Below are positions 2,233 to 30,333 of a stretch of DNA of 64,000 bases, in pieces (position 1 is the first letter of the stretch; the number at the start of each line of letters is the position of its first letter). The position numbers and the translations under genes are program-made. The notes under the pieces are model-generated. The model did not search any database and was not told where the DNA came from. It saw nothing but the letters and a program-made list of their open reading frames with translations. Location: contig CM000154.2 in the NCBI GenBank assembly GCA_000004695.1, positions 2,944,001 through 3,008,000 on the forward strand. Reading direction: 5' to 3'. The stretch is from Dictyostelium discoideum (Eukaryota).

Positions 2233-2264
2233 ATAATTAAATAATAATAAATAATAAATAATAA

Positions 2265-2295
<31 letters not shown>

Positions 2296-2488
2296 CTTTA
2301 TAATTAATAATAAGAAATAAAGAAAAAAAAAAAAAAAAAATATAATTTATATATTTTTTTTTTGTGTATATAAATATTAATAAAAATAAAATTAATTATT
2401 TTTAAGTTTTTTTTATTTATATCTTTTCTTTATTTCTTTTCTTTTGAAGAAATAATTGACATTTTTTTTTTTTCAATTTATCTTTGGT

Positions 2489-5226
<2,738 letters not shown>

Positions 5227-6025
5227 TGATATTTATCTGTATATTCAAGGTCTTAATACTTCTCTTTGAATATTACATTGAAAATAAAAAAATAAAAAAG
5301 TGAAAAAAAAAAAAAAATATTCCCCCAATTAGACACATAAAAAAAGAAAAAAAAAAAAAAAAAAATAAAATAAAATAATTATTTATTTTTTTTTATTTTT
5401 TTTATGTTTTTTTTTCTTTTATAAATTGATTTTTTTTTAAATACAAATTTAGTGTATAAAAATAGGGTATTCAAAAATACATAAAATGATATTAAATATA
5501 AAAAAAATGAATGTAACCATTATTATTTTTTAGTTTTTTTTTTTTTTTTTTTTTATATAATTATTTTTGATGTATAGTCCTTTAATTTCAGAATTTAATC
5601 ATTTGGCATTCATTTTTTGTAATTATTATTTTTATTTGAAGAACAATGAGAAGAAAATAAATTTTATATAAAAAATAGATTTACAAAATAAAAAACAGAA
5701 TATTTATTTTAAAATAACTAATTTAAAAATCCATATTTAATTCATTTATTTTTTTGATTTAAAAATTAATATAAATAAAAAAAATAATAAATAAATAAAA
5801 ATGGTAATATATTAAAAAAATAAAAAATTCAGAAATTAAATTACAAAATAAAATATTTGATTAAAAAAATAAAAAAAATTCCAAAAAAAAAAAAATAAAT
5901 ATTCCAAAAATCGTAAAGTTTAAATTCATTTTTTTTATATTATATATAATTTTGTGTATTTTTGAGTGTAAAAATATTATGATAATTTTAAATATGGATT
6001 TAATATTTAAAATTAAATCATTATT

Positions 6026-6059
<34 letters not shown>

Positions 6060-6542
6060 AATATATTTTTTTTTTTTAATTGTCAAATTATTGGACTATA
6101 CATCAAAAATAATTAGTAATAATAGCAATTAATATTTCAAATAAATCAAAAGGATATAAAAAACAAATATTAATTTAAATAATTAAACTATTTATTTATA
6201 AAATAATTCATTTTTTTTAACAATAATTATAATAAAAAATAATAATTATAATAAACCTAGAGCATTGACAAAATCTTTTAAATTATTTCATTTTACAAAA
6301 AAAAAAAAACAAAAAATCGAATTAATGATTGGTTCAAGAATACTATAAAAAAGAGTAACAATGTAAAAATGAAATACAAAAAAAAAAAAAAAAAAAAAAA
6401 ATTTTAATTCAAGGTTACAATTACAATCAAATATAAAATAATTAAAATAAATTAAAAACAATACATCTTAAAAAAAAAAAAAAAAAAAATATAAAATAAT
6501 TAAAAAAAATTAAAAACAATAATAATATAATTTATTTTTTTG

Positions 6543-6580
<38 letters not shown>

Positions 6581-7234
6581 AACTTATTTGATTAACATAA
6601 CAATAAGTTGTTGTTATAGTACAATATTAACATTGAGATTTATGGAGATTACACCTAACAATAATAATTTTTCTTTATTTTTAATTTTTTTTTTTTGCTT
6701 TTTGTTTTTTTTTTTTTTTTTTTCTTGGGGGGGTAATGATTAAAAATAGAAAAATTGAAGGGTAGAGAAAAGTGAAAAAAAAATTTATAATTAACACACT
6801 AATTTTTTTTCCTTTTAAGTTATCACCACTAGTAGTCAAAAAAATTTTATATAACAATCCACCTAAAATACACAATATGGTGTAACTAATTTTATTAGAA
6901 ACTACCCAAATTCAAAATTTAGGTATGTAGTGTTTTTTTTTTGTTTATTATTTTGAGTTAAATAGTATGATGTTCTATTTTCTTTGTGTTTATATAATTT
7001 TTTTTTTTAAAAAAAAAAATAATAATTTTTTTTTTAATTATTATTATTATTTTTTTTATTTTTTTTTTTTTTTACACTTTTTTTTTTTTTTTTTTATTCA
7101 TTTATTTTTTATCAAATTTATTTTTCTCATTTTTCAATACCAATATATTATTATTATTTTTTTATTTATAATTTGTATAAAAAATAAAAAATAATTATAA
7201 TAAATATAACAATCTATTAAAATTTATAAAAAAA

Positions 7235-10166
7235 ATGAATATAAAATATTTATCATTTTTATTTATATTATTCATTTTACCAATATGGTGTGAAGTTAAA
7301 GTTGAAAGTAAGTATTTTTTTTTTTTTTTTTATACAAATGATTTAAAAATATTAATTTTTTTTTTTTTTTTTTTTTATAAAAAAAATAGATTTTTATAAT
7401 AATGAAACAACTATTGTATTTGAATATAATTTAAATGATGAATATTTTACAAAATGGTTTTATTTTGATAATAATTATTTTGCCATATTCTCATGTTTTG
7501 ACAATTCAACAAATAGAATTTGTGAATTTTTACCAAGTATTTCAGATATGGATAAATTATATAGTAATAAAATTTTTTATTGTTCGATTAATCCATCATC
7601 ATCATCAGTAGAGGAATGTAATAATAGTATTTTAAAACCATCATTTTATCCAACACCAATTATATCGAAAGATTTTAAACCTCCAACAAAAGGTGGTCAA
7701 GTAGTTATTAAAGGATCATTTTTAATAAGCAGTGGTCACAAATTTCCAACACAATATGGTGATGTTAAAGTTGAAATTCCAAATTCAGGTTTAATAAATC
7801 CAACAAACATTACAATTAAATCATTTCCATTTGGATGTGGTGAACAAACAATTCGATATTATAATAATAAATTATTTAAATTTCAATATTCAAATCCAAT
7901 CCTATATTCAATATCAATTGAAAAAATAAATGAATATTCAAAAATTAAATTAATTATTAATGGTGATAATTTTTGTACAATTAGTGATAATGTTTCATTG
8001 TCAATTGGAAAATTAAATGGATTACAATTTAATTGGGAAAATAATAATAATAATAATATAATTTCAATTGAATATGATCAAATTTATTCTGGATTATATA
8101 ATGTATCATTAAATGCAAATGGATTAATTTCAAATAATTTATTATTAACGTTTAATCCAGAAATTAAAAGTGTAACATCCGTTCCAAAATCATTAGGAGG
8201 TATTATTACAATTAGAGGTAATAGATTAATATCAGAAAATGGTATGAATGATACTATTGTATCATTTGTTGGTAATCGAGAATTTGATTGTTTAATGATT
8301 TCAAATTCTGAATCCATTATTGAATGTAATCTTCTAAAAGTTGTTTTATTATTTTACGCATATTTTAATATAAATTTAATAGTTGGTGGTCAAAAACAAT
8401 TAGATGGAACAATTAAATTTGAGTTTGATAAACCATATATTAGTGGTAAATCATTAACAGGAATGAATTTAACATTATTTGGTGAAATGTTTATGAATCC
8501 CCATGTTTTTATAAATGGTATTGAATTAAATAATAATTTAACTATCTCTTTTAGTTCAACAGAATTTAAGTTCACATTACCAAATGATTTTAAAAAAGGA
8601 TCGATATTTCTTCGAAATTCTAAAAATGCTGCAGATTCAAATACAATAATATTTGAAAAATCATTTAATATTGAATCAATTGGATACTCAACAACTAGAG
8701 GTCAATTATTATCATTTCAATTTAACAATATTTTAAATGAAAATTTAAATTTAATACCAACTTTAACCTATAATTCAAGTCAATTAATTTTTAATGAACC
8801 ATTATCAACAATATTTAATAAAACAAATGGTGATTTTAAATTTGAAGTACCAATGGGTTGTGGTTCAAATAGTCCAATTCAAGGTATAATTGGTAATCAA
8901 ATTGCAAATTCAACATTTTCATATTTTGAACCAATTATTTTAAGATGTCTAACTGATGATTTTTTAATAATTTGTTATGGTTTTAATTTTGGTAGTTTAT
9001 CAATGATCAATAGTGATGATAGTGATAATAATAATAATAATAATAATAATAATATTAAAATTAATTTTTTAAATCAAATCTATACAAATAATAATATTAG
9101 TAAATTAGATCATGAAAAATTTGTTATACCATTAAAATCAAATAATCTTTATAATGGTAATATTTCAATCACTGTTTGTGGTTTAACTTCAAATTATTAT
9201 CAACTTTATTTTAAATCATCAATTAAAAATGAAGCTCGATTATTTAACCAATATTTTAAATCAAATGGTGGTGATTTAATAATTAATGGTCATAACTTCA
9301 TTTATAATAAAAGTAATTTCACATATTTACTTTGTGATGATGATGATGAATATTATAATCAAATTAAATATAATTGTAATTTTATAGATAATACATTTTA
9401 TAATTGTCCAATTAATATTATTGGGCCATTTGATAGAAAATGTATATTAAATTTCCAAAATGAAAAAATGTTTAATATAAAAATCAATTATTTATCACCA
9501 ACAGTTAATAATGTTATTTTAAATAATTTAACAATTACTGGTGGTTTAATAACTATAAATGGAAGTGATTTTTATAACCTTACAACTTTTATTGAAATTG
9601 GTAATTTAAATTGTTATAATGTTACTTTTATAAATTCAAATCAATTAAATTGCAATTTAATTACAAATAATATTTCACAACATTTAATAAGTAATAATTT
9701 ATATTATGTTAATATTTCAATTTTTAGTGGCACAAATAATAATTTAGATTTAATTAAAAATAGTAGTACTTTAATATTTAAATATGATAATTTATTAGGA
9801 AATTCAAATAGTAATAATAGTAATAATAATAATAATGGTGATGGTAGTCATGGTGATGATGGTGGTGATGGTGGGGGTGGTGATGGTGATGGTGATGGTG
9901 ATGGTGGTTCCAGTAAATTAAAATGGTTAATACCAACTATTATATGTCCAGTTATTTTTGTTGTAATGGTTATCTTTATTGGGCCTGAACTATTTAGAAG
10001 ATTCTATACCTATCCACCTCCAAAACCACCATTACCTGAACCAGGTTTTCAAAGAAGACCTTATGATCCTCCGAATTTAAATAACAGATTATATGAAAAT
10101 ACCATAACTCGATATGATAATGATCCTGATAATCTACAATTATCATTTGTTCCAATTCAACCTTAA
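7235..10166 (+). CDS. Signal-peptide, IPT/TIG-repeat single-pass transmembrane protein (Tgr/'tiger' family-like); 2 exons
   Basis: Exon 1 is 7235-7307 (MNIKYLSFLFILFILPIWCEVKVE, a signal peptide). It has a GTAAGT donor at 7308, an 82-bp intron and acceptor ATAG at 7389. Exon 2 is 7390-10166 and is in frame with the supplied 7548 ORF. Repeated IPT/TIG-like motifs are present: ITIRGNRLISENG, IINGDNFC, LIINGHNFIY, ITINGSDFYNL. A C-terminal TM segment (WLIPTIICPVIFVVMVIFIG) is followed by a Pro-rich tail. There is a G/D-rich GDGSHGDDGGDGGGGDGDGDGDGG stalk. Confidence 0.6.
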
Positions 10167-10489
10167 TTCTAGCGAAGAAGAAGAAAAAAGAAAAAAAAAA
10201 AAAAAAATATATTTAATAATAACCTGTAAATAAAATAAACTATTTAACTTTTATAATTGTTTTTTTTTTTTTTTTGAATATATTTTTTTTGTTTTTTTAT
10301 TGATACATTTTACAATTTGAGGTTTGAATAAATATTATTTAATATCTTTTTTTTTTTTTTTTTCTTTCTTTTCTTAAAAATTTTTTTTTTTCTTTTTCTA
10401 TTTTCTCAATCCTGTTATATATATTTTAATTTTTTTGAAATTAATAAAAATAAATTTATTTTTTTAACTTTTTTTTTTTTTCATATATT

Positions 10490-10811
10490 TTAAAATAGAA
10501 AAAATATACTAACCCATAAGAAGAGCATTCCCACAAATGTTTCATATTGTACATATCCTGAATTTTGTGGATCAGCTTCATAGATCATTTCTTCAATCTT
10601 ATAAAATAAATATAATTTTATTTTATTTTTTTTTTTTTTTTTTTTTTGATTAGTAAGAAAATTGTAATAGGAAATTAAAATTTTAAAAAATGCTTACTTC
10701 ATCAGCTGGCATCATATCACCAAGTTCATTTAAAACTTTTCTTAAATAATCTACAGTTACATAACCATTACCATCACGATCAAAAACTTTGAAAGCTTCT
10801 ATAACTTGTGC
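10490..10811 (-). CDS. Small two-EF-hand protein (calmodulin/myosin-I light-chain-like); first exon not resolved
   Basis: Exon 10698-10811 (minus) encodes AQVIEAFKVFDRDGNGYVTVDYLRKVLNELGDMMPADE, a canonical EF-hand loop DRDGNGYV, and ends at a GTAAGC donor. Exon 10490-10597 follows acceptor ATAAG and encodes IEEMIYEADPQNSGYVQYETFVGML.., a second EF-hand. A possible tiny first exon ATGAATCACATAAATACAAAA (about 10938-10958, minus) with a weak GTACAC donor is unproven. Confidence 0.5.
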
Positions 10812-11803
10812 CTAAAATAAAAAATAAAAAAATATTTTTAAATAAAAATTAAAATAATTAGAATTGGTAAATGAATTTTGTGTTTTTTTGTTTTTATAAA
10901 AAATTTTGTAATAACTGTGTACTTTTGTATTTATGTGATTCATTATTTATTTATTATTTGTGAAAGTTTGTTATGAAAAATAAAAAAAAAAAAAACTATT
11001 TGGATTTTTTTTTTTTTTTAATTTTTTTTTTTTATTTTGAGCATGTCATGACCCATTTTTTATTTTTATTAGAAAATTATTGATGAATTTTTGGGGTTTT
11101 TTTTTTTTTTTAATTTTTTTTTTATTTTCCAATTTGTTTTATCTTTTAAATAAATAAATCAATTCCAATACCAATTTTTTTTTTTTATATTAAATTTTGT
11201 AATTATTTTATTTATTTATTGTTTTTTTTTATTCAATTTTAATTATTTGTTTTAAAAAATAATTTAACAATCCAATAATTCTTTAATAACACAAACTATG
11301 AAATCAAATTCCAGTCCTTAAAATTCTAAATTACCGGATAATTTTTTTAATAACCTTGCACAATTAATTATGCGTGTTCGATTAATGTTTTTTTTTTTTT
11401 TTTTATACAAAGATTATTTTGGTTTGATTGTATTCCAAATTTTTTTTTTTTTTGAATTGGATAACGCAATTATTATTTGCTTCTCCTTGAGATGCTAGAT
11501 CTCATTTTATTTTATTTTTTTTTTTTTTTTTACAGGGTCTCTAAAAGAGGGGTTAGTTTACTTTTTTTTTTTTTTTTTTTTTTTTGTTTCGAATTTTGAA
11601 TTGTATTATTACTTTTGATTAAAACATCTTTTTTGTCCAAACTTTTTTCTAAATCTTTTTTTATTTTATCGTCTGGTTCGTGATTGATGTTTATGACGTA
11701 TTTGAATTGTTTTTTTTTTAATTGAGTTTTATCCACAATTTCGCTTATTTTTTGTAGGCATTTGTGTTGCTTAATATTTGTGGTGTTGTTTGTGATTTTC
11801 ATT

Positions 11804-11903
11804 NNNNNNNNNNNNNNNNNNNNNNNNNNNNNNNNNNNNNNNNNNNNNNNNNNNNNNNNNNNNNNNNNNNNNNNNNNNNNNNNNNNNNNNNNNNNNNNNN
11901 NNN
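11804..11903. other. Assembly gap (100 N) inside the tandem-repeat/retroelement region
   Basis: Run of exactly 100 n. Confidence 1.
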
Positions 11904-12631
11904 CAATAAAGTAAAAAGATGGCTTTTTAAGATAGTTTATTTATTTATTTATTTGTTTTTTAAGTCTTTTTTATATGAAAAATGAAATAATCAAAAAAAG
12001 AGATTGTTGTTGTTGTTTGTTTTTTTTCGATCTGATTATTTTTTGCTTTTTTTTGAAAATTTTGCTACGCAAAATTCTCAAAACGAAACAAATAATAAAT
12101 TACAATAAAGTAAAAAGATGGCTTTTTAAGATAGTTTATTTATTTATTTATTTGTTTTTTAAGTCTTTTTTATATGAAAAATGAAATAATCAAAAAAAGA
12201 GATTGTTGTTGTTGTTTGTTTTTTTTCGATCTGATTATTTTTTGCTTTTTTTTGAAAATTTTGCTACGCAAAATTCTCAAAACGAAACAAATAATAAATT
12301 ACAATAAAGTAAAAAGATGGCTTTTTAAGATAGTTTATTTATTTATTTATTTGTTTTTTAAGTCTTTTTTATATGAAAAATGAAATAATCAAAAAAAGAG
12401 ATTGTTGTTGTTGTTTGTTTTTTTTCGATCTGATTATTTTTTGCTTTTTTTTGAAAATTTTGCTACGCAAAATTCTCAAAACGAAACAAATAATAAATTA
12501 CAATAAAGTAAAAAGATGGCTTTTTAAGATAGTTTATTTATTTATTTATTTGTTTTTTAAGTCTTTTTTATATGAAAAATGAAATAATCAAAAAAAGAGA
12601 TTGTTGTTGTTGTTTGTTTTTTTTCGATCTC
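11904..12631. repeat. Tandem array of a 199-bp unit (at least 3.6 copies; truncated by the gap)
   Basis: The identical 69-aa ORFs at 11975, 12174 and 12373 are spaced exactly 199 bp apart. Unit sequence: ...caataaagtaaaaagatggctttttaagatagtttatttatttatttatttg...tgttgttgttgtttgttttttttcgatct... It is plausibly the repeated 5' (A-module-like) region of the retroelement. Confidence 0.85.
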
Positions 12632-12679
12632 ATTGTATTCCAAATAATTTTAAGCGTTCCAAATCCCAAATTTCAAAAT

Positions 12680-12750
12680 GGGAGATTAGTTAAGTGGTAT
12701 AATGCTACCTTTGGGTGGTAGCGTCCTGAGTTCGATTCTCGGATCTCCCC
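12680..12750 (+). tRNA. tRNA-Pro (anticodon UGG)
   Basis: GGGAGATTAGTTAAGTGGTATAATGCTACCTTTGGGTGGTAGCGTCCTGAGTTCGATTCTCGGATCTCCCC. Acceptor stem GGGAGAT/ATCTCCC, anticodon stem CTACC/GGTAG, loop TTTGGGT giving anticodon TGG, T-loop GTTCGATTC. Length 71 nt. Confidence 0.9.
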
Positions 12751-12781
12751 ATCTTTTAAGATCCGAAACAATAGATTACAT

Positions 12782-12791
12782 GTTCGATTCC
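12782..12791 (+). promoter_or_regulatory. ex-B box (extra pol III B-box) downstream of tRNA-Pro
   Basis: GTTCGATTCC lies 32 nt 3' of the tRNA end. This is the Dictyostelium-specific external B-box arrangement. Confidence 0.7.
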
Positions 12792-12899
12792 TATATTTAT
12801 TTGGTATTCAAACTCTAATTTTTTAATATTTTAAAAAAAAAAACAAAAAAAATAAAAAAGTTTTTTTGGAGTAATTTAGGGTTGGCAATGTCCCTAGAG

Positions 12900-12932
<33 letters not shown>

Positions 12933-13192
12933 GACCCAAAATGACCTAAAATTTTTTTTTTTGACCCAAGATGACCCAAAATTTTTTAATTTGGCATTAT
13001 TTACTAAAAAAAAAAAAAAAAACTTAAAAAATTAAGAAAAATAAATTTAAAAAAATAGAAAAATTTTGATAAGATATTTTTGTATTCTAAATTTTTGATT
13101 AGTTTTTTTTTTTTTAGGTTTTCTTTTTTTTTTTTTTTTCATCATTTTTTTATATAAAATAAAATTAGATTTATAATTTTTATTCTCAAATC

Positions 13193-13654
13193 ATGATATC
13201 AAATAATAATAATAATAGAATATGTACACTTCATCCAAACAGATTTTTAATGTTTTTTTGTTTGGATTGCCAATTAATTCCATGTTGTGCTCAGTGTACC
13301 TCAGTTTCAGGTGAACATCATGGTCATAAAACTAATGAATAGGATGTGAATCCAAAAATAAATGAAAGAATCGAAGAGGATCAAAAAATATTAAAAGAAT
13401 CAAATGAAAAATTTGATAGAATTAAAACTCAATATGAAACAAATGTGGGAATATTGGAAAGGGAAATTAAAAAAATCCATGATATAGCTTCAATAGTACA
13501 AATAGAGGTCCAGAAAACATTATCGGTAGCTTTTGAAATGAATACATCAATAAATGATAGAATAGCTTTTTCAATCGAGAATGATAATGAAACACTTTCT
13601 AGCGATATGAGTAAAAATATTAGTTTTGATATATTCATTTATATCAGTATTTAA
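13193..13654 (+). pseudogene. B-box zinc-finger ORF (13193-13342) followed in the same frame, after a single TAG, by a coiled-coil ORF (13343-13654). Either a disrupted B-box/coiled-coil gene or a sequencing error
   Basis: [49 protein letters not shown] has a C-x2-H-x8-C-x7-C-x2-C-x6-H-x2-H B-box. TAG sits at 13340-13342. The same frame then reads ...NPKINERIEEDQKILKESNEKFDRIKTQYETNVGILEREIKKIHDIASIVQIEVQK, which has a heptad-like coiled-coil character. Confidence 0.4.
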
Positions 13655-13973
13655 ATGAATGGTTCGATTTTCGTATTCTTTTAATTTTTATGAGGAAAGT
13701 GGAATTAATAGTAATAATAATATTAATAATGATAATAATAATAATAATAATGTTAATGGTAGTAATGAAGAGAGAGAAATCCAAATGGCAATTTAACAAT
13801 CTTTTAGAAGTTTCTATAGCGATATGAGTAAAAATATGGTATGAATGTCCAGAAAGTATTCATTATATATCTGATCTACCATCTGTGGGTCTTATATAAT
13901 AAATTTTATTTTTTTCTAATCAATCATTAGATAAATTTGTAATATTTTTACAATACCAAATTAATGTTATTAT

Positions 13974-14018
<45 letters not shown>

Positions 14019-14323
14019 AATAAACAAGATAAATAAAAAAATAATTAAGTTAAATAAAAATAAAAAATAATTAAAATAATCTTTGATCTATTTTTTTTTT
14101 TTTTTTAACCAAATTTATTTATTGGGAATTTAAAATCAGAAAATTTTTCCCCCCCTTTATTAAATTTTTTTTTTTAAAAAAAATTTCCCAAAGGTAAAAA
14201 TATTAATTTTAAAAATTTAAATAATTTTAAAACCCAAAAATTTCAAAAAAAAAAAAAAAATTTTTTTTTTAACAAAAAATTTTTAAAGGTCAATTAATTT
14301 TAATTTTTTTTATTTAATTGGTT

Positions 14324-14366
<43 letters not shown>

Positions 14367-14705
14367 CACCAACCAATTCATCATTTTTTTTATTTGAATT
14401 AATTTATAAAAAATTAAAAAATTGATTTAATTAATTTTTTTTTTTTTATTTTCATTTTTTATTTTTTTTTATTTTTTTTTATTTTTTTTTTTTTTTGTTT
14501 TTATTTTTTTTTTTATTTTTTTATTTTTTTATTTTTTTTTTATTAATTATAACCTTTCACATGATATAGTCGACAATATTTGAAGTCATTCAAATAATTT
14601 TTAATAAACAAAAATAAAATTTAATAAAATAAAATTTATAGAAAACAATATAAAATAAAAACAAAAAACAAAGTAATAAAAATATTAAAAAAAAAAAAAA
14701 AAAGA

Positions 14706-15311
14706 TATGGGAGGGTCTCAAAGTAAAAAATTAACAAAAAAATGTAAGTTTAGTATATATATATATATATTTATTCACAGCGCAGAATAATAATAATAAC
14801 AATAGTAATATTAATGTGACATATAATAATTTAATAATCACAATTAATATAGTAGAACAAAATGAAATCGATAGAATTCAAAGTTTATTTAATGATATAT
14901 CAGTACCAATAAAATCAGTTAAATCAATTGATAGAGATGGATTTAAAAGATTTCATTTAATTCCAGAACCACTATCCGATAGAATATTCAATTTATTTGA
15001 ACAATCAACAAAAAAAGGTGGATCTATGACTTTTGATGATTTATTATCAGGTTTAGCAGTTTGTGGTAAATCAACTGAAAAAGATAAAGTTAATGGTAAT
15101 TATTATTATTATTTTATAATATCATTATAAATTTTAAAATATATTTACTTTTTTTTTTTCAATTTTTTTTTTATTTTTTTTTTTTATTTAGTTATATTTA
15201 AATTTATAGATATTGATGATGATGGTATAATAACAAAAGAAGAGATATCAGTATTATCAGTTGTTTCATTAGAGAATGCAAATTCTCCAAAAATATTCTC
15301 AAATGGTAAAT

Positions 15312-15377
<66 letters not shown>

Positions 15378-16981
15378 ATTTCGGAATGTTAATATATACA
15401 TATATAAAATAATATTATATAGATGATAATCCATTACTTTTACAAGTTGTAGGTATGGGATTCCCAAAACATAAAGTTAATACAGCATTAAAAGAGACTA
15501 GAAATGGCACAGTTGGTACACCTGGTAGTAATCCTGTTGAAAATATAGTATCTTGGTTATTAGTCAATCAAAGTTCTGTATGTAATAGTATTTTAAAGAT
15601 GATGATGATGATGAGTATATACATATAATTTATTAAAATAATTATTTATAAAATTTAGGAAAGTGATTCAGGTATTGATGAAGAATCAAAGCAACAACAA
15701 CAACCAACATCAGTTAAACCAGATCCAAAATCAATTGAAGAATTAACAATTGGATTAAATTTATCAACTATATTAACAACATTTGAAGGATTATTCGATG
15801 TTTTAGATAAAGAAGGTAGTGGTAAGATTACATTAGCTAAATTTAAGAAATGGGCATCATCAACAAAGAAACCACATGAATTAGATTCATTATTGAAACC
15901 AATAGCTGCATTATATGATAGAGCAATTAAATGGAAATCTGAATCAAATTCATCCTCATCTTCATCAGCATTAAATCAATCAAATGGTAGTGGTAATGAA
16001 CAAGTTGTTGCTGCACCTTCTGTTGAAAGATCAACTTCTCAATCAAGTTTAAATGGACAAACAACAACAACGACACCAACACAATCACCATCAATAACTT
16101 CAACTAATCCACCAAATATAATTAGTAATAGTAATAATACTTCGTCATCTGATTTAAACAATAATATTAATAATAATAATAACAATAATAATACAAATCC
16201 AAAAGAATTAAAAAGATATTCATCAGTTTCAGTTATGGAATCAACGAAAAAAGATAAAGAAAAACAAGAAAAACAAGAAAAAGAAAGAGAGAAACAAGAA
16301 AAAGAAAGAGAAAAACAAGAGAAAAAAGCAGAAAAAGAGAGGGAAAAATTAGAAAAAGAAAAAGAAAAAGATAAAGAAAAGGATACAACAAATACAACAA
16401 CAACCACTACTACTACAGCAGCAACTACAACAACACCAACACCAATTAATTCTAGTAGTAATATAGTTAAATCATCAAGTAATTCATCAATATCAAAAAA
16501 TAATAACAATAGTAATGTTAATGATGGTGATTCATCATTTGATTCAGATAGTGATGATGAAGTTATTAAACCAGCTATTCAAGTGGTTATTAGAGATAAA
16601 CCAATTGAAAGTCAAAAGAGTGAAAATTCATTATTTAATATTGAACCTTCAATTGGTATTGTTAAACCAATGCTTAGTAAAGCTGCTACCTTAAGAACTA
16701 GAGGCAGTAGATCAAATAGAAATACAATGGATCCTGAATTATTCTCTTCACTTCAACCATTAACTCCAACTTCAAAACATACTACTACCACTGCAACTAA
16801 TACAAATACAAATACAAACACATCAACAACTTCACCAAATTTATCATCACCATTATCACCAACACCATCATCACCATTATCACCAACACCCTCAAATAGA
16901 AACCCATTAGGTCACAGTAATACTATTGTATCATCACCACCACCATATGTAACATCACAATCTAATGCAAGTTTCTTTTCA

Positions 16982-17018
<37 letters not shown>

Positions 17019-17625
17019 GTAGTAATAATATCAATAATAATAATAATAGTAATAATAATAATAATATAATCAATAATCAAAATAAAGATAATTTCACAGA
17101 TACAGCATCATCTAATAGTAATCCAACAAGTCCGATTTCACAAAAATTAAATTCTGAAAGTATCGAATATATGAAGAAATGTATAAATCAAATGGAAAAT
17201 GGTAACTTTAAAGAAGCAATTTTAGATTTGGATCAATGTATTAAAATATTATGTGTGTATAAAATTTTATTTAAAAAATAATATTAATAATTTTATTTTA
17301 TATTAATTTTTTTTTTTATTTTTTTTATTTTAAATAGTACAAGTTCATTCAAATAATTTATCAATTATTCAAAATGAAATTAATTTTTGTGTTGGATATA
17401 AAGTTACATTAAATTTATTAATAGAAATTAAAGAAATTGAAAAGAAGATTGAACAAGAATCAAATAAGGATGAAGTATCATCATATTATGAAACCATTGC
17501 TTTATTATCTAAATTTTTAGTCGACATTCCACTTCAAACTAATCATAGATTAGTTTGTGCAAAAATGGCTGTAAAATATAATTTAATTTCAAATAATTTT
17601 GGTATAGCTGGTAAATTAATAGAGG

Positions 17626-17663
<38 letters not shown>

Positions 17664-18052
17664 TTATAAAATAATACATTTATTAATTATTTATTAATTA
17701 TTTATTTAATTATTTTTGAAAGATTATTTTACAAAAAGGTATAAATTTAGGTGATAAAGAAAAAGAACAATATGAAATTCAATTACAACAATGTAGAGAT
17801 AATCAATTTAATAATTCAAGTTTACCAATGTATATTTGTCCAAGTTGTAAATCATCAACATCTTGTAGTTCAATTAGATGTTCTTGTTTGAGACCTGTAA
17901 GATGGTGTTTTCAAACTTTTCAACTTATTAAAGATTTAACCTTTTTACAATGTAATTATTGTTATTCAACTTTTTCAATTAATCAATCTGAAGTTGTTTC
18001 AAAATCAATTTGTCCATCTTGTAATCATGGTATAATTAATACTAAAAATTAA
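14706..18052 (+). CDS. N-myristoylation-motif EF-hand / UBA-domain protein with a long S/T/N/KE-rich linker and a Cys-rich C-terminus; 7 exons
   Basis: Exon 1 starts at 14706 (MGGSQ...). Its donor is ambiguous: the GTAAAA at 14722 gives frame continuity into exon 2, whereas the consensus GTAAGT at 14744 does not. Exon 2 is 14781-15095 (...FKRFHLIPEPLSDRIFNLFEQSTKKGGSMTFDDLLSGLAVCGKSTEKDKVN). Exon 3 is 15192-15305 (FKFIDIDDDGIITKEEI, an EF-hand loop). Exon 4 is 15422-15576 (DDNPLLLQVVGMGFPKHKVNTALKETRNGTVGTPGSNPVENIVSWLL, UBA-like). Exon 5 is 15659-17252 (FDVLDKEGSGKITLAKFKKW, then the low-complexity region). Exon 6 is 17338-17624. Exon 7 is 17723-18052 (YICPSCK...CPSCNHG). All junctions are GT..AG and frame-consistent. 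Confidence 0.6.
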
Positions 18053-18176
18053 TAATAATAATTATTATTATTATTATTATTATTACTATTACTATTATTA
18101 TTATTATTATTATTTTTATTTATAAAAAAAATAATAAAATTTTGGTATAAACAATATAACAAATAATAACTCAAAA

Positions 18177-18276
18177 NNNNNNNNNNNNNNNNNNNNNNNN
18201 NNNNNNNNNNNNNNNNNNNNNNNNNNNNNNNNNNNNNNNNNNNNNNNNNNNNNNNNNNNNNNNNNNNNNNNNNNNN
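18177..18276. other. Assembly gap (100 N), intergenic
   Basis: Run of exactly 100 n. Confidence 1.
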
Positions 18277-19455
18277 AAAAAAAAGGTTATTAAAAAAAAA
18301 ATAATAATATTAATTTTTAAAGAAAATAAAAGATTATGTGGAAATTATTTTAAAAGAAAATTTTTGATGATCCCATCCTGATTTACTATTATTGGTTTTA
18401 AAAAAAAAAAAAAAAAAAAAAAGTTTTTCAACTGATAAGGGTTAATTTGGTTGAATGAATTGGTTGTGGTGATGTGTGGTGTGTTATTATTTTAAAAGAA
18501 TAATGGTAATATTTTGTATCTTTTTTTAATTTCTAAAAATAAAAAGTTTATAAAGGTATTATTTTTTTTTTTTTTTTTTTTTTTTTTATTTTTTTTTTAT
18601 TTTTTTTTTTACAACCCAAATTCATTCACATCATAAATCTCAATAAATAATAAAATAATTAAAACATATCCACTTTACAACTTTATTTTTAGATTTATTG
18701 AATTGTGTAACCTAAACACTTTTCAACTTAATTTTTTTTTTTTTTTTTTTTAAATTAAAAAAAGATATTTTAAAAAATGTAATTTCAAAAAAAGATATTT
18801 TTTTTTATTTTTTTAAATTTTATTTTGTTTTTTTTTTTTTTTTTTTGATAATTAATTTTTTATAATTTCAGCCTTTTTTATATATCTTTGAATTAAGATT
18901 TAGAAATCCCATTCACCATATATATAACACTTTTTTTTTTTTTTGCAATTGGGGGTATTTTTTAAACTATTTTTAACTTTAATAAAATTAAAAAATGGGC
19001 TCCAATTAAAGTGTTTGAATGAAAATGGGAAATAATTTGGTAAAAAAAAAATAAAAATAAAAAAACATAAAATTGATGTTCTAAAAATCTCTCAATGATC
19101 ATTCAATCTTTAAAAAAATAATTCAAACCATATGTATATATTTTATGTGGCTCAATATATGGTGCTATTGAAGAGATTATTTGAACATCAAGTTTATGGT
19201 TTTTAAGTTAATAAAAAAAAAAAAAATTATAGGGCTTTTAAAGGAATGAGCTATTTTTAATTATTTTTTTTTTTTCTCACCCCGCCACACAAGGAAAAAA
19301 ACCACCCAAAATTTTTTTTTTTTTTATTTTTGGAATTTTTAAATCTAAAAGTTAAGATTTGTGTTAATTTTTTTTATCATTTTTTTTTTTTATTATTTTT
19401 TTTTTTTTAATAATTTTTTTTATTATTTTTTTTTATTTACCTTTTTTGTGTTTCA

Positions 19456-19502
<47 letters not shown>

Positions 19503-20197
19503 ATTTTATTATTTTATTTCAAACAACACATTTCAATCCATCACATATATATACATATAAAAAAAAAATCTACACATACATTGTAACATAGTTGTAATTT
19601 GTAAAATACCATATATATATTATAAAAATCATTTCAATTTTTTTTTATTAAAATTATTTTAAATTACAAATAAAACAAAAAAAAAAATAAATAAAAAAAA
19701 TAAAATTGGGTAAGTTTTATTTTTCAACAATCAATTTCATTTTTTTTTTATTTTTTATTTTTTATTTTTTTTTCCTTTTTCATTTTTTTTATTTCTTAAT
19801 TTATTTTTTTATTTTTTTTTAATTATTTTTTTTTTTTTATAATTATTTCTTTTTTTATCAGTATTAAAAAAGACAATTTTATTTATAAAAAATTAAAAAA
19901 AAAAAAATTAAAAAATAAAAAAAAAAAAATTTTAATCAAATATAAACCACTTCACACACCACACACACTTTTTAACTTTTTTTTTTTTTTTTATTTTTTT
20001 TTTTTATTTTTTTTTTTATTTTTTTATTTTTTTTTTTTTTTACTATAATATTATAATAATATTATTTTGTATCAATCTAGAAAAAATTATTAGTATTGTT
20101 TTAACCTAACCTATAAATATAAACATTGTTTAAAATTATAAAGACAATATAATAAATAAATCAAAACATATAATTATTATTATTTTTTTTTTTTTTC

Positions 20198-20235
<38 letters not shown>

Positions 20236-20469
20236 CATTTTTTAATTATTATTATAATTAAATATACTTTAAACGTACTAATATTTCAATCAAATAAATC
20301 ACCAAAAATAGGAACCACAATAATACTGTAATAACAATAAAAATAATTTAATTACTACCAAATTAATCATACAAAATTTTAAAAAATTAATAATAAAAAA
20401 ATTAATTTAAATAAAAAAAAAAAAAATAAAAAAAATAAAAACAGTAAAAAATAAAAAAATAATTAAAAA

Positions 20470-20502
20470 ATGTTTAAATTATTTAAAAAAAAAGAAGTAC
20501 CA

Positions 20503-20561
<59 letters not shown>

Positions 20562-22659
20562 AAATAATAATAATGAAAATAAAATTTTAACACCAAGAAT
20601 TAATGGTGCAGATCAATCATCAACAACAACAACAATTACAAATATTCAGACTAGTGGTGAAAAGAAATTAAAAACTAAATTATCAAAGAGTGAATTAACA
20701 AAGAGTGATAGTACAACAAGTAGTTTAGCAAATAGTCCAAGAAGTGAAAAAGCGGAAATGGGTATTAGAGATATTCCATATGATCTTTTGGGTAAATTAT
20801 TGGCGTTAATTCATGGTAATCGTATATTGACCAAAGAATTTATGTCAACAAGTTTAGTATGTAGAAAATGGAGAGCATTGGCACGTCTTAATGGTAATCA
20901 TTTCAATTTGGAATCATTTTTTAAAAAGGTAGAAGCAAGTAAAATGAGAGTTGAAACCATTGAAAGCTGTATCAATTATTTCACCTACATTTACCAAGCA
21001 TTGGAAATCATTGATATTGGTAAACTTTGTATAAATAATAGAATCTATTCAAAATATTCAATCTTTTTAATTGAATCATTGGATAAAATCACCAAACTCT
21101 CATTGGATATGTCAAAAGTTACATTGTCAGAGTTTGAAGTATTAGCATCAAGTTTAAAATCATTGAAAGCAACCAAAGATGTAACCATTCATTGTATGAC
21201 ACATCATTATTGTAATGCAATGATATCCGTATTCGAATCGTTACCAGAGTTGGAGAGTTTAAAGTTTACAGAGATGACATTTGAAAATTCAAATGAAGAT
21301 CATGATCTATTCGTACAATATTTGAAAAAGAATAATACAATACAGAAGTTATCAATAACTTTATTACCTGACAATACAAGATTCTTAAATTCAATTAAAA
21401 CGATTATGGGTTCAAATAGATCAATCAACTCTTTACAACTTACTCAAAGTATTAAAAGACCATCATTAACTTCATCACCTTCTTCAAATAATGTACATAT
21501 TCCACCAAGCTCTTCAAATTCATCCTCTGCTGCTGCAATTTCAACATCACCATCATCATTTTCAAATACACAATTCAATAGTGTTTTACAAACTTCTTAT
21601 TCAATTTCAAAGTTTAATTATTCTCATGATAGTTTAAAGGAATTAAATCTATCAAATATGTCAATGAATGATACAGATATGATGGAATTGGCAGAGAATG
21701 TTTTACAAAATAATCAATCATTGAAATCATTAGATATTAGTTATAATAAAAAAGTATCCTCTGCTACAATGGAACAATTCCTAAGAATTATGTGTGCAAA
21801 TACTGATATGAAATTAGAATTTTTAAATATTAGTGGTTTATCAATTAATGATCAATGTATAAGTTTGGTTGGTGATTATCTTCAAACCAATCCTTACCTA
21901 AAGGAAATCTATATTAATGATAGTGTTGAACAATATTGGTCAGATGGATTTAGAAACTTTTCAAATAAACTTTCAAATCGTCCAGCTTTAAAAACTTTAT
22001 ACCTAAATAGAAATCGTATTGAAACTAAATGTTTCGATGATTTAGCTCATGCAATTTCAAATAATAGTTCAAATGTTAGATATTTGGGATTAAGTGGTAC
22101 TTTAAATAATGCTCAAAGTTTACATTTAATTTGTAATTCTTTAGGTTCAAATTCAAATTTAGTTTCATTGGATATTTCAAATTGTGAAGTTTGTTTCTGT
22201 CCTTCTCTAACAGATTCATTATTAAAGAATCGTTATTTAGCAAAATTAAATGTAAACAATTGTAAATTAAATCAAAAAACTCTATTGGGTATGGCAAATA
22301 GTAATCTATCCATTCTTGATATTGGTTCAAATAATTTCACTTCAGGTGATACACTTCAAGAGTTTTTCGAATCTTTAAAATCAAATCAATCACTTTACGT
22401 TTTAAATCTTTCAAATACAGGTTTAAAAACTAAAGAATGTCAAGTCCTTTCAAGTCTTTTAGATTTAAATTCAAAAATACACTCGGTTGATATCTCTCAT
22501 AATAAAATTAAATCCTCTGATATTCAATGTATCGTCAAATGTATTCAATGTAAAAATTTACCTCCTTCAACAAAATTCACTTTGAAATTAAATGATACTA
22601 AAATAGATTTATTAAAAATTTCTAATGATTTATTAAATAGTCAAATTTCTGTTGATTAA
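20470..22659 (+). CDS. F-box / leucine-rich-repeat (RNI-like) protein
   Basis: Single 729-aa ORF. The N-terminus is poly-N. An F-box-like motif IRDIPYDLLGKLLALIHGNRILTKEFMSTSLVCRKWRAL is present. About 28-residue LRRs of ribonuclease-inhibitor type follow (NLSNMSMNDTDMMELAENVLQNNQSLKSLDISYNK..., LKTLYLNRNRI..., LVSLDISNCEV...). Confidence 0.7.
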
Positions 22660-26446: not shown

Positions 26447-26517
26447 GGGGAGATCCGAGAATCGAACTCAGGACGCTACCACCCAAAGGTAGCATTATAC
26501 CACTTAACTAATCTCCC
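26447..26517 (-). tRNA. tRNA-Pro (anticodon UGG), identical copy in inverted orientation
   Basis: The reverse complement of 26447-26517 is identical over 71 nt to the tRNA at 12680-12750. About 30 nt of 5' flank (..GCGTT..AAATC..AATTTCAAAAT) is also conserved. Confidence 0.9.
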
Positions 26518-30233: not shown

Positions 30234-30333
30234 NNNNNNNNNNNNNNNNNNNNNNNNNNNNNNNNNNNNNNNNNNNNNNNNNNNNNNNNNNNNNNNNNNN
30301 NNNNNNNNNNNNNNNNNNNNNNNNNNNNNNNNN
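30234..30333. other. Assembly gap (100 N), intergenic, between the ENY2 and ankyrin-like genes
   Basis: Run of exactly 100 n. Confidence 1.

What the first reader, a model, noticed from the sequence alone, without database searches (positions are those of the whole stretch)
11427..12750. Retroelement remnant inserted exactly 48 bp upstream of tRNA-Pro, with a 14-bp target-site duplication, an oligo(A) end and an array of 199-bp modules
The 14-mer ATTGTATTCCAAAT occurs at 11427-11440 and again at 12632-12645. The segment between the two copies ends in T14 on the plus strand, which is a poly(A) 3' tail of a minus-strand element. Its other end lies 48 bp from the first base of tRNA-Pro(UGG). The interior holds at least 3.6 copies of a 199-bp tandem unit and the tail of a Lys-rich ORF. 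Position and orientation match the known behaviour of Dictyostelium TRE5 (DRE) non-LTR retrotransposons, which integrate about 48 bp upstream of tRNA genes and can carry repeated 5' A-modules. The 100-N gap shows the assembler could not traverse this copy, so its real length and module number are unknown.
Basis: partly seen in the sequence, partly recalled or inferred. Interest (0 to 1): 0.6.

Follow-up and report, generated by a model that had tools for sequence, protein, structure and literature searches.

The report
Known TRE5-A retrotransposon beside tRNA-Pro
This is an ordinary copy of TRE5-A, the well-studied Dictyostelium discoideum retrotransposon that targets tRNA genes. It looks like a fragment only because the reference assembly has a gap where a long-read assembly of the same locus holds about 21 kb more of the element.

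Summary
The window is D. discoideum AX4 chromosome 5. An exact 14-bp duplication (11427-11440 and 12632-12645) brackets a minus-strand element. The element ends in A13 and starts 48 bp from tRNA-Pro(UGG). It shows 3.65 near-identical 199-bp units next to a 100-N gap.

- Published primers named for TRE5-A ORF1 and ORF2 match it.
- Four C-module nucleotides named in the literature are present, and each lies in the stem the paper assigns it.
- Spacing, orientation and duplication length fit published ranges and 19 other copies I sampled.

Two details are wrong.
- The "Lys-rich ORF tail" is the duplicated start of ORF1 inside the 3' B-module.
- It is not a remnant. In a long-read assembly with 99.8-100% identical flanks (GCA_054883475.1), the same duplication flanks 22,382 bp. 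That element has 36 full plus one partial A-module, three tandem intact B-ORF1-ORF2 units, then B, C and A13.

Multi-copy A arrays are common in that genome (1 to 21 elsewhere), so the array is a family trait. The verdict is an already known element of low interest. The only mildly new point is the size of this composite.

The parts
11427..11440 (.). Target-site duplication, left copy (ATTGTATTCCAAAT), next to the element's 3' oligo(A).
   Evidence: Exact 14-mer found only twice in the window. The same 14-mer flanks the 22,382-bp element in the long-read assembly.
11441..11453 (-). Oligo(A)13 tail of the element, read as T13 on the + strand.
   Evidence: Six other TRE5-A.1 copies end ...TGCGTTATCCAATTC(A)12-26.
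11454..11589 (-). C-module (about 136 nt), the 3' UTR end. It includes the terminal 54-nt three-stem structure that is needed for retrotransposition.
   Evidence: Identical to the long-read copy apart from one homopolymer A. T15, C26, A35 and C38 counted from the 3' end match the nucleotides mutated in PMC3159450, and each lies in the stem the paper names. Matches the C-modules of other copies at 96-99%.
11590..11803 (-). Distal 214 nt of the 3' B-module. It carries a duplicated ORF1 start codon (ATG at 11802-11800) and about 70 ORF1 codons, and is cut by the gap.
   Evidence: 99.5% identical to the start of the 444-aa ORF1 genes in L001 and L003. Published primer Rep-108 (named TRE5-A ORF1) hits 11671-11697 with one indel. 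The divergence point from the 5' B-module is.
11804..11903 (.). 100-N assembly gap. It stands for about 21.3 kb in a long-read assembly of the same locus: the rest of the A array, three B-ORF1-ORF2 units and the proximal part of the 3' B-module.
11904..12631 (-). A-module array (the plus-strand promoter module). It shows 3.65 units of 199 bp, and the element's 5' end is at 12631.
   Evidence: Tandem Repeats Finder result. Unit-by-unit identity. The same unit sits upstream of B-ORF1 in 19 other TRE5-A copies.
12632..12645 (.). Target-site duplication, right copy. It forms the first 14 nt of the 48-nt spacer (12632-12679) between the element and the tRNA.
12680..12750 (+). tRNA-Pro(UGG), the RNA polymerase III gene that served as the integration target.
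   Evidence: ARAGORN. Internal B-box motif GTTCGATTC at 12730.

Best explanation
The feature is one insertion of the non-LTR retrotransposon TRE5-A (subform TRE5-A.1, formerly DRE) upstream of a tRNA-Pro(UGG) gene on D. discoideum AX4 chromosome 5.

**How it got there.** This mechanism is established for the family and inferred for this copy.
- The element's ORF1 protein recognises the TFIIIB/TFIIIC complex assembled on the tRNA gene.
- The ORF2 endonuclease nicks the DNA about 48 bp upstream.
- The RNA is reverse-transcribed from its oligo(A) end by target-primed reverse transcription.
- A staggered second-strand cut produces the 14-bp duplication.
- The 5' end of the element ends up facing the tRNA gene.

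**What the window shows.** Only the two ends are visible: C-module plus part of the 3' B-module on the left, and 3.65 A-modules on the right. The repetitive interior was left as a gap.

**What fills the gap.** A near-identical long-read assembly shows the whole element as A(36.4)-[B-ORF1-ORF2]x3-B-C-A13, 22.4 kb long, with all ORFs open.

**Origin of the internal repeats.** The A array and the tripled coding unit most likely grew after insertion, by unequal recombination or replication slippage between identical repeats (199-bp A units; roughly 329-bp 5' and 3' B-modules). This step is inference.
For: **Organism.** The neighbouring TIG-domain gene is 100% identical to DDB_G0289561 of AX4 on a 5,125,352-bp contig.

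**Anatomy in the window.**

**Identity as TRE5-A.**
- The 3' segment is 99.5% identical to the start of a 444-aa ORF1 that is followed by a 1047-aa RVT_1 ORF2. It is 97.8% identical to a B-C 3' end in L001.
- Primers published as TRE5-A ORF1 Rep-109 and TRE5-A ORF2 Rep-75 match exactly. The 3' 21 nt of Rep-176 match exactly; its printed 5' part (an apparent XhoI site plus stop codon) does not. Rep-108 matches with one indel and lies inside the window (PMC4559204).
- The C-module nucleotides T15, C26, A35 and C38 match PMC3159450, as do their stem assignments.
- ORF2 has an RVT_1 domain (E = 3e-33). It overlaps ORF1 by 25 nt in the -1 frame, as stated for TRE5-A in PMC5911963.

**Fit to published behaviour.**
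- The 5' end faces the tRNA 5' end, about 50 bp upstream (PMC3159450).
- 80% of integrations fall within 47 +/- 3 bp (PMC5391098).
- Target-site duplications are 10-16 bp (PMC9012585).

**Controls within the family.** Five simple full-length copies lie 47-48 bp from their tRNA. Duplications of 13-16 bp were found at five of the six copies examined (none at L014). All six share the same termini.

**Gap closure.**
- L003 and L004 flank the locus at 99.8-100% identity.
- L010, L011 and L012 merge without conflict.
Against: - The interior is seen only in another assembly (GCA_054883475.1) whose strain I could not identify. AX4 itself may carry different numbers of A-modules or coding units.
- Long arrays of identical repeats can be mis-sized by assemblers.
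- No TRE5-A consensus record was available, so identity rests on primers, named nucleotides, architecture and annotated paralogues, not on a direct consensus alignment.
- Pfam did not detect the endonuclease domain at E <= 0.01. Only its motifs are visible by eye.
- The B-module measures about 329 bp here, against 290 bp in the literature. This is probably a difference in how the boundary is defined.
- No true empty site was found in another strain.
Confidence: 0.95

Rival explanations
1. It is a dead remnant: a short A(n)-B-C solo element, or a non-autonomous TRE5-A.2 (AB-ORF1-BC) lacking ORF2. On this view the gap hides little.
For: Only 1.1 kb of element is visible in the window. Non-autonomous TRE5-A.2 copies are common in the same genome (seven).
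Against: - The orthologous locus in the long-read assembly has three intact ORF1-ORF2 units between the same duplications.
- TRE5-A.2 copies carry a BC deletion that leaves only C positions 51-136 (PMC3159450). The window has the full 136-nt C-module and an undeleted B-C junction.
Confidence: 0.03
2. It is a related family member, TRE5-B or TRE5-C, not TRE5-A.
For: All TRE5 elements integrate about 44-54 bp upstream of tRNA genes in this orientation (PMC5911963). TRE5-C also ends in a C-module.
Against: - TRE5-B and TRE5-C lack a 3' B-module, and TRE5-B lacks a C-module (PMC3159450). This element has both.
- The TRE5-C C-module is only 78% identical to that of TRE5-A. Here all four named TRE5-A nucleotides are present and the TRE5-A primers match.
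Confidence: 0.01
3. The 14-bp repeat is chance or part of a segmental duplication, and the two sides of the gap are unrelated repeats joined by scaffolding.
For: The genome is 79% A+T and low in complexity. With one mismatch allowed, 7 of 100 shuffles gave two or more matches somewhere in the window.
Against: - The two copies abut exactly the canonical 3' end (...CCAATTC(A)n) and the canonical 5' end (GAGATCG...) of the family.
- There is no similarity beyond the 14 nt.
- A gap-free assembly joins the two sides through one continuous element.
Confidence: 0.01

Closest known systems
TRE5-A.1 (DRE), the autonomous tRNA-gene-targeted non-LTR retrotransposon of Dictyostelium discoideum
   Same: - Module order A(n)-B-ORF1-ORF2-B-C-oligo(A), with a 199-bp A unit.
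- ORF1 start inside B, and a 444-aa (about 51 kDa) ORF1.
- ORF2 carries a reverse transcriptase domain and sits in the -1 frame with a short overlap.
- A roughly 136-nt C-module with the published hairpin nucleotides.
- 48 bp upstream of a tRNA gene, head to head, with a 14-bp duplication.
- Published TRE5-A primers match.
   Different: - Nothing in kind.
- In the long-read assembly this copy has an unusually long A array: 36.4 units, against 1-21 in the 15 other copies I counted that begin with an A-module.
- Its B-ORF1-ORF2 unit is present three times in tandem. I found no published description of this arrangement, though I could not read the key structural papers from 1992 and 2001.
TRE5-A.2, the non-autonomous derivative (AB-ORF1-BC)
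   Same: Same A, B and C modules, ORF1, target preference and orientation. It also carries variable A arrays (1, 1, 1, 8, 8 and 21).
   Different: TRE5-A.2 lacks ORF2 and has a 72-bp BC deletion that leaves 87 nt of C. The window copy has the complete B-C junction, and the long-read copy has ORF2.
TRE5-B and TRE5-C
   Same: Same clade, and the same position and orientation upstream of tRNA genes.
   Different: Neither has a 3' B-module. TRE5-B has no C-module, and the TRE5-C C-module is only about 78% identical to that of TRE5-A.
L1-type target-primed reverse transcription elements in general
   Same: APE-type endonuclease motifs plus reverse transcriptase, an oligo(A) tail, variable target-site duplications, frequent 5' truncation, and an internal promoter in the 5' UTR. 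Tandem promoter monomers are also known in mouse L1 (my own knowledge).
   Different: Targeting works through RNA polymerase III transcription factors instead of a loose sequence preference. The ORF1 protein is unrelated to L1 ORF1p.

Membership tests
TRE5-A | Integration about 47 +/- 3 bp upstream of a tRNA (RNA polymerase III) gene. | tested here: met
   48 nt lie between the element's 5' end (12631) and tRNA-Pro base 1 (12680). The published window is in PMC5391098.
TRE5-A | Fixed orientation, with the element's 5' end facing the tRNA's 5' end. | tested here: met
   The A-modules adjoin the tRNA, the oligo(A) is distal, and the element lies on the opposite strand. The rule is stated in PMC3159450.
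TRE5-A | Modular UTRs: one or more A-modules of about 200 bp plus B at the 5' end, and B plus a C-module of about 134-137 bp at the 3' end. | tested here: met
   199-bp A units. B-C at the 3' end with C of about 136 nt. B measures about 329 bp by self-alignment, against 290 bp published. The A(n)B layout with multiple A-modules is from Marschalek et al. 1992 (Mol Cell Biol 12:229), which I recall but could not read.
TRE5-A | The ORF1 start codon lies in the B-module, and ORF1 encodes a protein of about 51 kDa. | tested here: met
   ATG at 11802 in the 3' B copy. The same sequence starts 444-aa ORF1 genes.
TRE5-A | ORF2 has APE endonuclease, reverse transcriptase and zinc-finger regions, and is reached by a -1 frameshift from ORF1. 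| tested here: met
   Tested on the long-read copy of this locus. RVT_1 scores E = 3e-33. The ORF2 frame is open from 25 nt before the ORF1 stop, in the -1 frame. APE motifs (GVWNVQG, LLTETN, IYAP, GDFN, DRVF, SDHN) and a CxxC...H...C motif are visible, but Pfam gave no APE hit at E <= 0.01.
TRE5-A | A hairpin in the last ~54 nt of the C-module, with the nucleotides named in the mutagenesis study. | tested here: met
   T15, C26, A35 and C38 are present and paired in stems III and I. The fold gives dG = -16.9 kcal/mol at 22 C, z = -2.9 against shuffles.
TRE5-A | Oligo(A) tail and a target-site duplication of 10-16 bp. | tested here: met
   A13 and a 14-bp duplication. The published range is in PMC9012585. 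Five of six copies examined have 13-16 bp.
TRE5-A | Sequence identity to published TRE5-A sequence. | tested here: met
   Primers Rep-109 and Rep-75 match exactly. Rep-176 matches over its 3' 21 nt (without its printed 5' add-on), and Rep-108 matches with one indel, including inside the window.
TRE5-A | Full-length alignment to the deposited TRE5-A.1 consensus. | not testable with these tools
   No Dictyostelium repeat library or GenBank nucleotide record is reachable. The structural papers were not held.
TRE5-A.2 (non-autonomous subform) | ORF2 deleted, plus a 72-bp BC deletion that leaves only the last 87 nt of C. | tested here: not met
   The window has the full C-module and an intact B-C junction. 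TRE5-A.2 copies show only C[51-136]. ORF2 is present in the long-read copy.
TRE5-B / TRE5-C | No 3' B-module. TRE5-B also has no C-module. | tested here: not met

The most novel reading that the evidence does not exclude
In NC4-derived laboratory strains, this locus may hold the largest TRE5-A composite in the genome: a 7.3-kb array of 36 identical A-module promoters driving three tandem, intact B-ORF1-ORF2 units. The composite would have been built in place by unequal exchange between A units and between the 5' and 3' B-modules. If it is real and previously undescribed, it would show that TRE5-A copies keep growing by recombination after insertion. Such a locus could be a dominant source of ORF1/ORF2 protein or transcripts, or a recombination hot spot.
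Probability: 0.25. Interest if true: 0.35.

Novelty: already known. Interest (0 to 1): 0.15.

Why it matters
For the scan, this finding can be closed as a textbook TRE5-A insertion in the reference genome of the organism where the family was defined.

It has some practical value.
- It shows that a 100-N gap in the AX4 reference hides about 21 kb of intact, probably retrotransposition-competent element.
- It shows that several short AX4 "hypothetical proteins" (for example DDB_G0282561 and DDB_G0280833) are mis-annotated B-module fragments.
- It shows that A-module number varies from 1 to 36 among the copies sampled in one genome.

That variation could matter for anyone who measures TRE5-A promoter strength or uses these loci as landmarks.

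Tried and rejected
- **Other copies in the window.** I searched the window for further copies of the A unit and the 3' segment. Only low-complexity hits came back.
- **AX4 gene look-ups.** AX4 proteins P0001, P0007 and P0010, and the 872-aa window ORF, are not on record in the contig index. I had to go through a sister assembly instead.
- **Third homologue search.** I used the 102-aa ORF just right of the tRNA, and it found nothing. That gene looks degenerate in AX4.
- **Locus-derived protein.** I got round this through cluster membership.
- **Empty site.** I hoped L002, from a more divergent D. discoideum assembly (flanks about 88% identical), would show the unoccupied site. It carries a different insertion upstream of the orthologous tRNA-Pro, so no empty site was obtained.
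- **Paralogous tRNA-Pro as proxy.** The second tRNA-Pro at 26447 shares flank similarity only from -44 to +46, so it says nothing about the left flank.
- **Papers not held.** Marschalek 1992, Glockner 2001 and Siol 2006 were unavailable. Searches for the assembly accessions and for "A modules" returned nothing useful.
- **Readings rejected.** TRE5-A.2, TRE5-B/C, a chance repeat, and a scaffolding artefact (see the rival explanations).

Full report
**1. Observation**

- ATTGTATTCCAAAT occurs exactly twice in the 64-kb window, at 11427-11440 and 12632-12645.
- The bases on either side of the two copies differ, so the repeat is 14 bp and not the edge of a longer duplication.
- Thirteen T's (11441-11453) follow the left copy. 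The run is 14 if the final T of the 14-mer is counted.
- ARAGORN finds tRNA-Pro(UGG) at 12680-12750 on the + strand. Exactly 48 nt separate it from the last base inside the right repeat copy.
- Tandem Repeats Finder reports a 199-bp period, 3.7 copies and 99% matches over 11904-12634.
- Phased from the element end, there are three full units plus 130 nt of a fourth, which is cut by the 100-N gap at 11804-11903. The units are identical except for the first base, G in the outermost unit and C in the internal ones.
- Neither the unit nor the 11441-11803 segment recurs elsewhere in the window.

**2. Source organism**

The window has 21% GC and four 100-N gaps. The 872-aa ORF at 7548-10166 is 100% identical to DDB_G0289561 of Dictyostelium discoideum AX4, on a 5,125,352-bp contig. 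The window is therefore AX4 chromosome 5.

**3. The left-hand segment**

Read on the minus strand, 11802-11533 is an ORF that begins with ATG at the gap edge (MKITNNTTNIKQHK...).

A protein search found only short D. discoideum "hypothetical proteins". They share these first 65-70 residues and then diverge into unrelated tails. That is the signature of a repeat fragment annotated by accident. Two of them (P0006, P0008) run straight into a translation of the element's last 45 nt.

One hit led to locus L001 in a long-read assembly, GCA_054883475.1.
- Positions 1-213 of the window segment are 99.5% identical to the start of a 444-aa gene there. That gene is followed by a 1047-aa gene with a reverse transcriptase domain.
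- Positions 1-361 of the segment are 97.8% identical to the 3' end of that element.
- The 199-bp unit matches the sequence just upstream of the first 444-aa gene.

This is the published TRE5-A.1 layout: AB-ORF1/ORF2-BC. The B-module carries the ORF1 start and is duplicated into the 3' UTR, and the C-module is about 134-137 nt (PMC3159450). So the "Lys-rich ORF tail" is the duplicated head of ORF1 in the 3' B-module. The B/C boundary falls at about 11589/11590.

**4. Tying the sequence to the name TRE5-A**

No repeat library was available, so I used published sequence facts.
- PMC4559204 lists primers "TRE5-A ORF1 Rep-108/Rep-109" and "TRE5-A ORF2 Rep-75/Rep-176".
- Rep-109 and Rep-75 match the element at this locus exactly. 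The 3' 21 nt of Rep-176 match exactly, while its printed 5' part (an apparent XhoI site plus stop codon) does not. Rep-108 matches with one indel and lies inside the window at 11671-11697.
- PMC3159450 names four C-module nucleotides counted from the 3' end: C38 and A35 in stem I, C26 and T15 in stem III.
- The window has exactly those bases at those positions. A fold of its last 54 nt puts each of them in the corresponding stem (dG = -16.9 kcal/mol at 22 C; z = -2.9).

**5. Closing the gap in silico**

The TIG-domain protein of a sister assembly (P0015) gave locus L003. The window's positions 1-11803 align to it at 99.83%, and the sequence then continues into ORF2, ORF1 and ORF2 again.

The single-exon 729-aa gene at 20470-22659 gave L004 from the same chromosome record. 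There the tRNA-Pro is preceded by the 48-nt spacer and by A units that run off the end of the locus.

The ORF1 protein itself (P0016) gave three overlapping loci, L010-L012. They merge without a single conflict into 31,117 bp. The same 14-mer flanks an element of 22,382 bp, made up as follows.
- 36 full A units plus one 99-nt partial unit.
- Three tandem B-ORF1-ORF2 units with a period of about 4.89 kb. They are 99.8% identical, and nearly all differences are homopolymer indels.
- A final B-module, a 136-nt C-module and A13.

All three ORF1 copies (444 aa) and all three ORF2 copies are open. The ORF2 frame opens 25 nt before the ORF1 stop, in the -1 frame. This matches the -1 frameshift reported for TRE5-A (PMC5911963). 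ORF2 has an RVT_1 domain (E = 3e-33). Endonuclease motifs are visible by eye, but Pfam did not call the domain.

Flank identity between the window and this assembly is 99.8-100% with few substitutions. It is therefore the same or a very close laboratory lineage. I could not identify the strain, so the copy numbers in AX4 itself remain inferred.

**6. Family-level controls**

I sampled 19 further TRE5-A copies from the same assembly.
- Five simple full-length copies start 47-48 bp from their tRNA gene.
- All six copies examined end in ...TGCGTTATCCAATTC(A)12-26, and duplications of 13-16 bp were found at five of them, none at L014.
- Four of the six begin GAGATCGAAAAAAAAC.... The others begin at position 2 (one copy) or are truncated by 6 nt (two copies).
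- Published values are 47 +/- 3 bp for 80% of new integrations (PMC5391098) and 10-16 bp duplications (PMC9012585).
- Full A-unit counts in the 15 other copies that begin with an A-module are 1 (six copies), 2 (three), 3, 7, 8, 8, 10 and 21, against 36 here.

Repeated A-modules are therefore a normal and variable property of the family. I also recall this from the abstract of Marschalek et al. 1992, but I could not read that paper. This locus is simply the largest array I sampled. A tandem B-ORF1-ORF2 arrangement also occurs in L001, with at least two units.

**7. Mechanism**

The following is established for the family and inferred for this copy.
- ORF1 protein binds TFIIIB on the tRNA gene.
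- The ORF2 endonuclease nicks the DNA about 48 bp upstream.
- Reverse transcription is primed on the oligo(A) end, and the C-module hairpin is required for it.
- A staggered second cut gives the 14-bp duplication.

My inferences go further.
- The identical A units and the near-identical tripled coding unit arose after insertion, by unequal exchange or slippage.
- For the coding unit, the exchange would be between the 5' and 3' B-modules, which are about 329 bp long and 98.8% identical.
- Template switching during reverse transcription is an alternative that I cannot exclude.
- The terminal G, which replaces the internal C, may be a reverse-transcribed cap nucleotide. This is speculation.

**8. 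Rivals**

- A remnant or TRE5-A.2: contradicted by the complete B-C junction and by the long-read interior.
- TRE5-B or TRE5-C: contradicted by the presence of a 3' B-module and a TRE5-A-type C-module.
- A chance repeat or scaffolding artefact: contradicted by the canonical termini and by the gap-free assembly.

**9. Verdict**

This is a known element in the genome where it was first described. The "remnant" label and the ORF description need correcting. Interest is low. The only mildly new point is the 22.4-kb size and the A(36)-[B-ORF1-ORF2]x3 structure at this locus in a long-read assembly.

Noticed in passing
window 26447-26517 (- strand) and flanks: A second tRNA-Pro(UGG) gene has no TRE5-A upstream. 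Its flanks are 94% identical to those of the first gene, from about -44 to +46. Both genes carry a second, external B-box-like motif (GTTCGATTC; 12782 for the first gene) about 30 nt downstream. From my own knowledge, this is the kind of site that TRE3 elements target.
   Followed up: partly
L002 14186-14646 (GCA_054859385.1, orthologous locus): A more divergent D. discoideum assembly (flanks about 88% identical) has a different insertion of about 460 bp upstream of the orthologous tRNA-Pro, starting about 12 bp from the gene. It includes what looks like an extremely 5'-truncated TRE5-A tail (CCAATTCAAT plus A8) flanked by a 14-bp direct repeat, GAGCAGTACTATTC. The rest matched none of my loci except a 57-bp piece in L009.
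   Followed up: partly
merged L012+L010, element positions 7222-22233; also L001 112-10212: Tandem B-ORF1-ORF2 units, three at this locus and at least two in L001, are joined only through a B-module with no A- or C-module between them. I did not find this arrangement in the papers I could read.
   Followed up: partly
L020 5627-9905; L008 7816-9904; L015, L021: Other TRE5-A copies in the same genome carry long A-module arrays: 21, 10, 8 and 8 units. Within each array the units are virtually identical.
   Followed up: yes
window 12631; L006 9615, L008 7816, L013 8419: The outermost A unit of complete elements starts with G, where internal units have C (GAGATCG versus CAGATCG). This would fit transcription starting at the following A plus a reverse-transcribed cap G. 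It is untested.
   Followed up: no
proteins P0001-P0009 (for example DDB_G0282561 and DDB_G0280833 in AX4): Short annotated "hypothetical proteins" in several D. discoideum assemblies are the duplicated ORF1 start in TRE5-A B-modules, fused to whatever sequence follows. They are annotation artefacts.
   Followed up: yes
window 13194-13800 (+ strand): The gene just right of the tRNA has an in-frame stop at 13340-13342. It also lacks the long Asn-rich middle part that is present in L002, and it has no protein match in the collection. It is probably degenerate or mis-modelled in AX4.
   Followed up: partly
window 18177-18276, 30234-30333, 57431-57530: There are three more 100-N gaps. In the long-read assembly the first corresponds to only about 30 bp and the second to about 82 bp, so unlike the TRE5-A gap they hide almost nothing. 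I did not check the third.
   Followed up: partly
L005 6822-15239; L006 9615-18933; L013 8306-15237: Several tRNA genes carry stacked TRE5-A insertions, with a newer copy inserted between the tRNA and an older copy. Examples are a TRE5-A.2 in front of a TRE5-A.1, and a 90-nt C-module stub in front of a full element. This matches the TRE-TRE tandems described in PMC5391098.
   Followed up: partly
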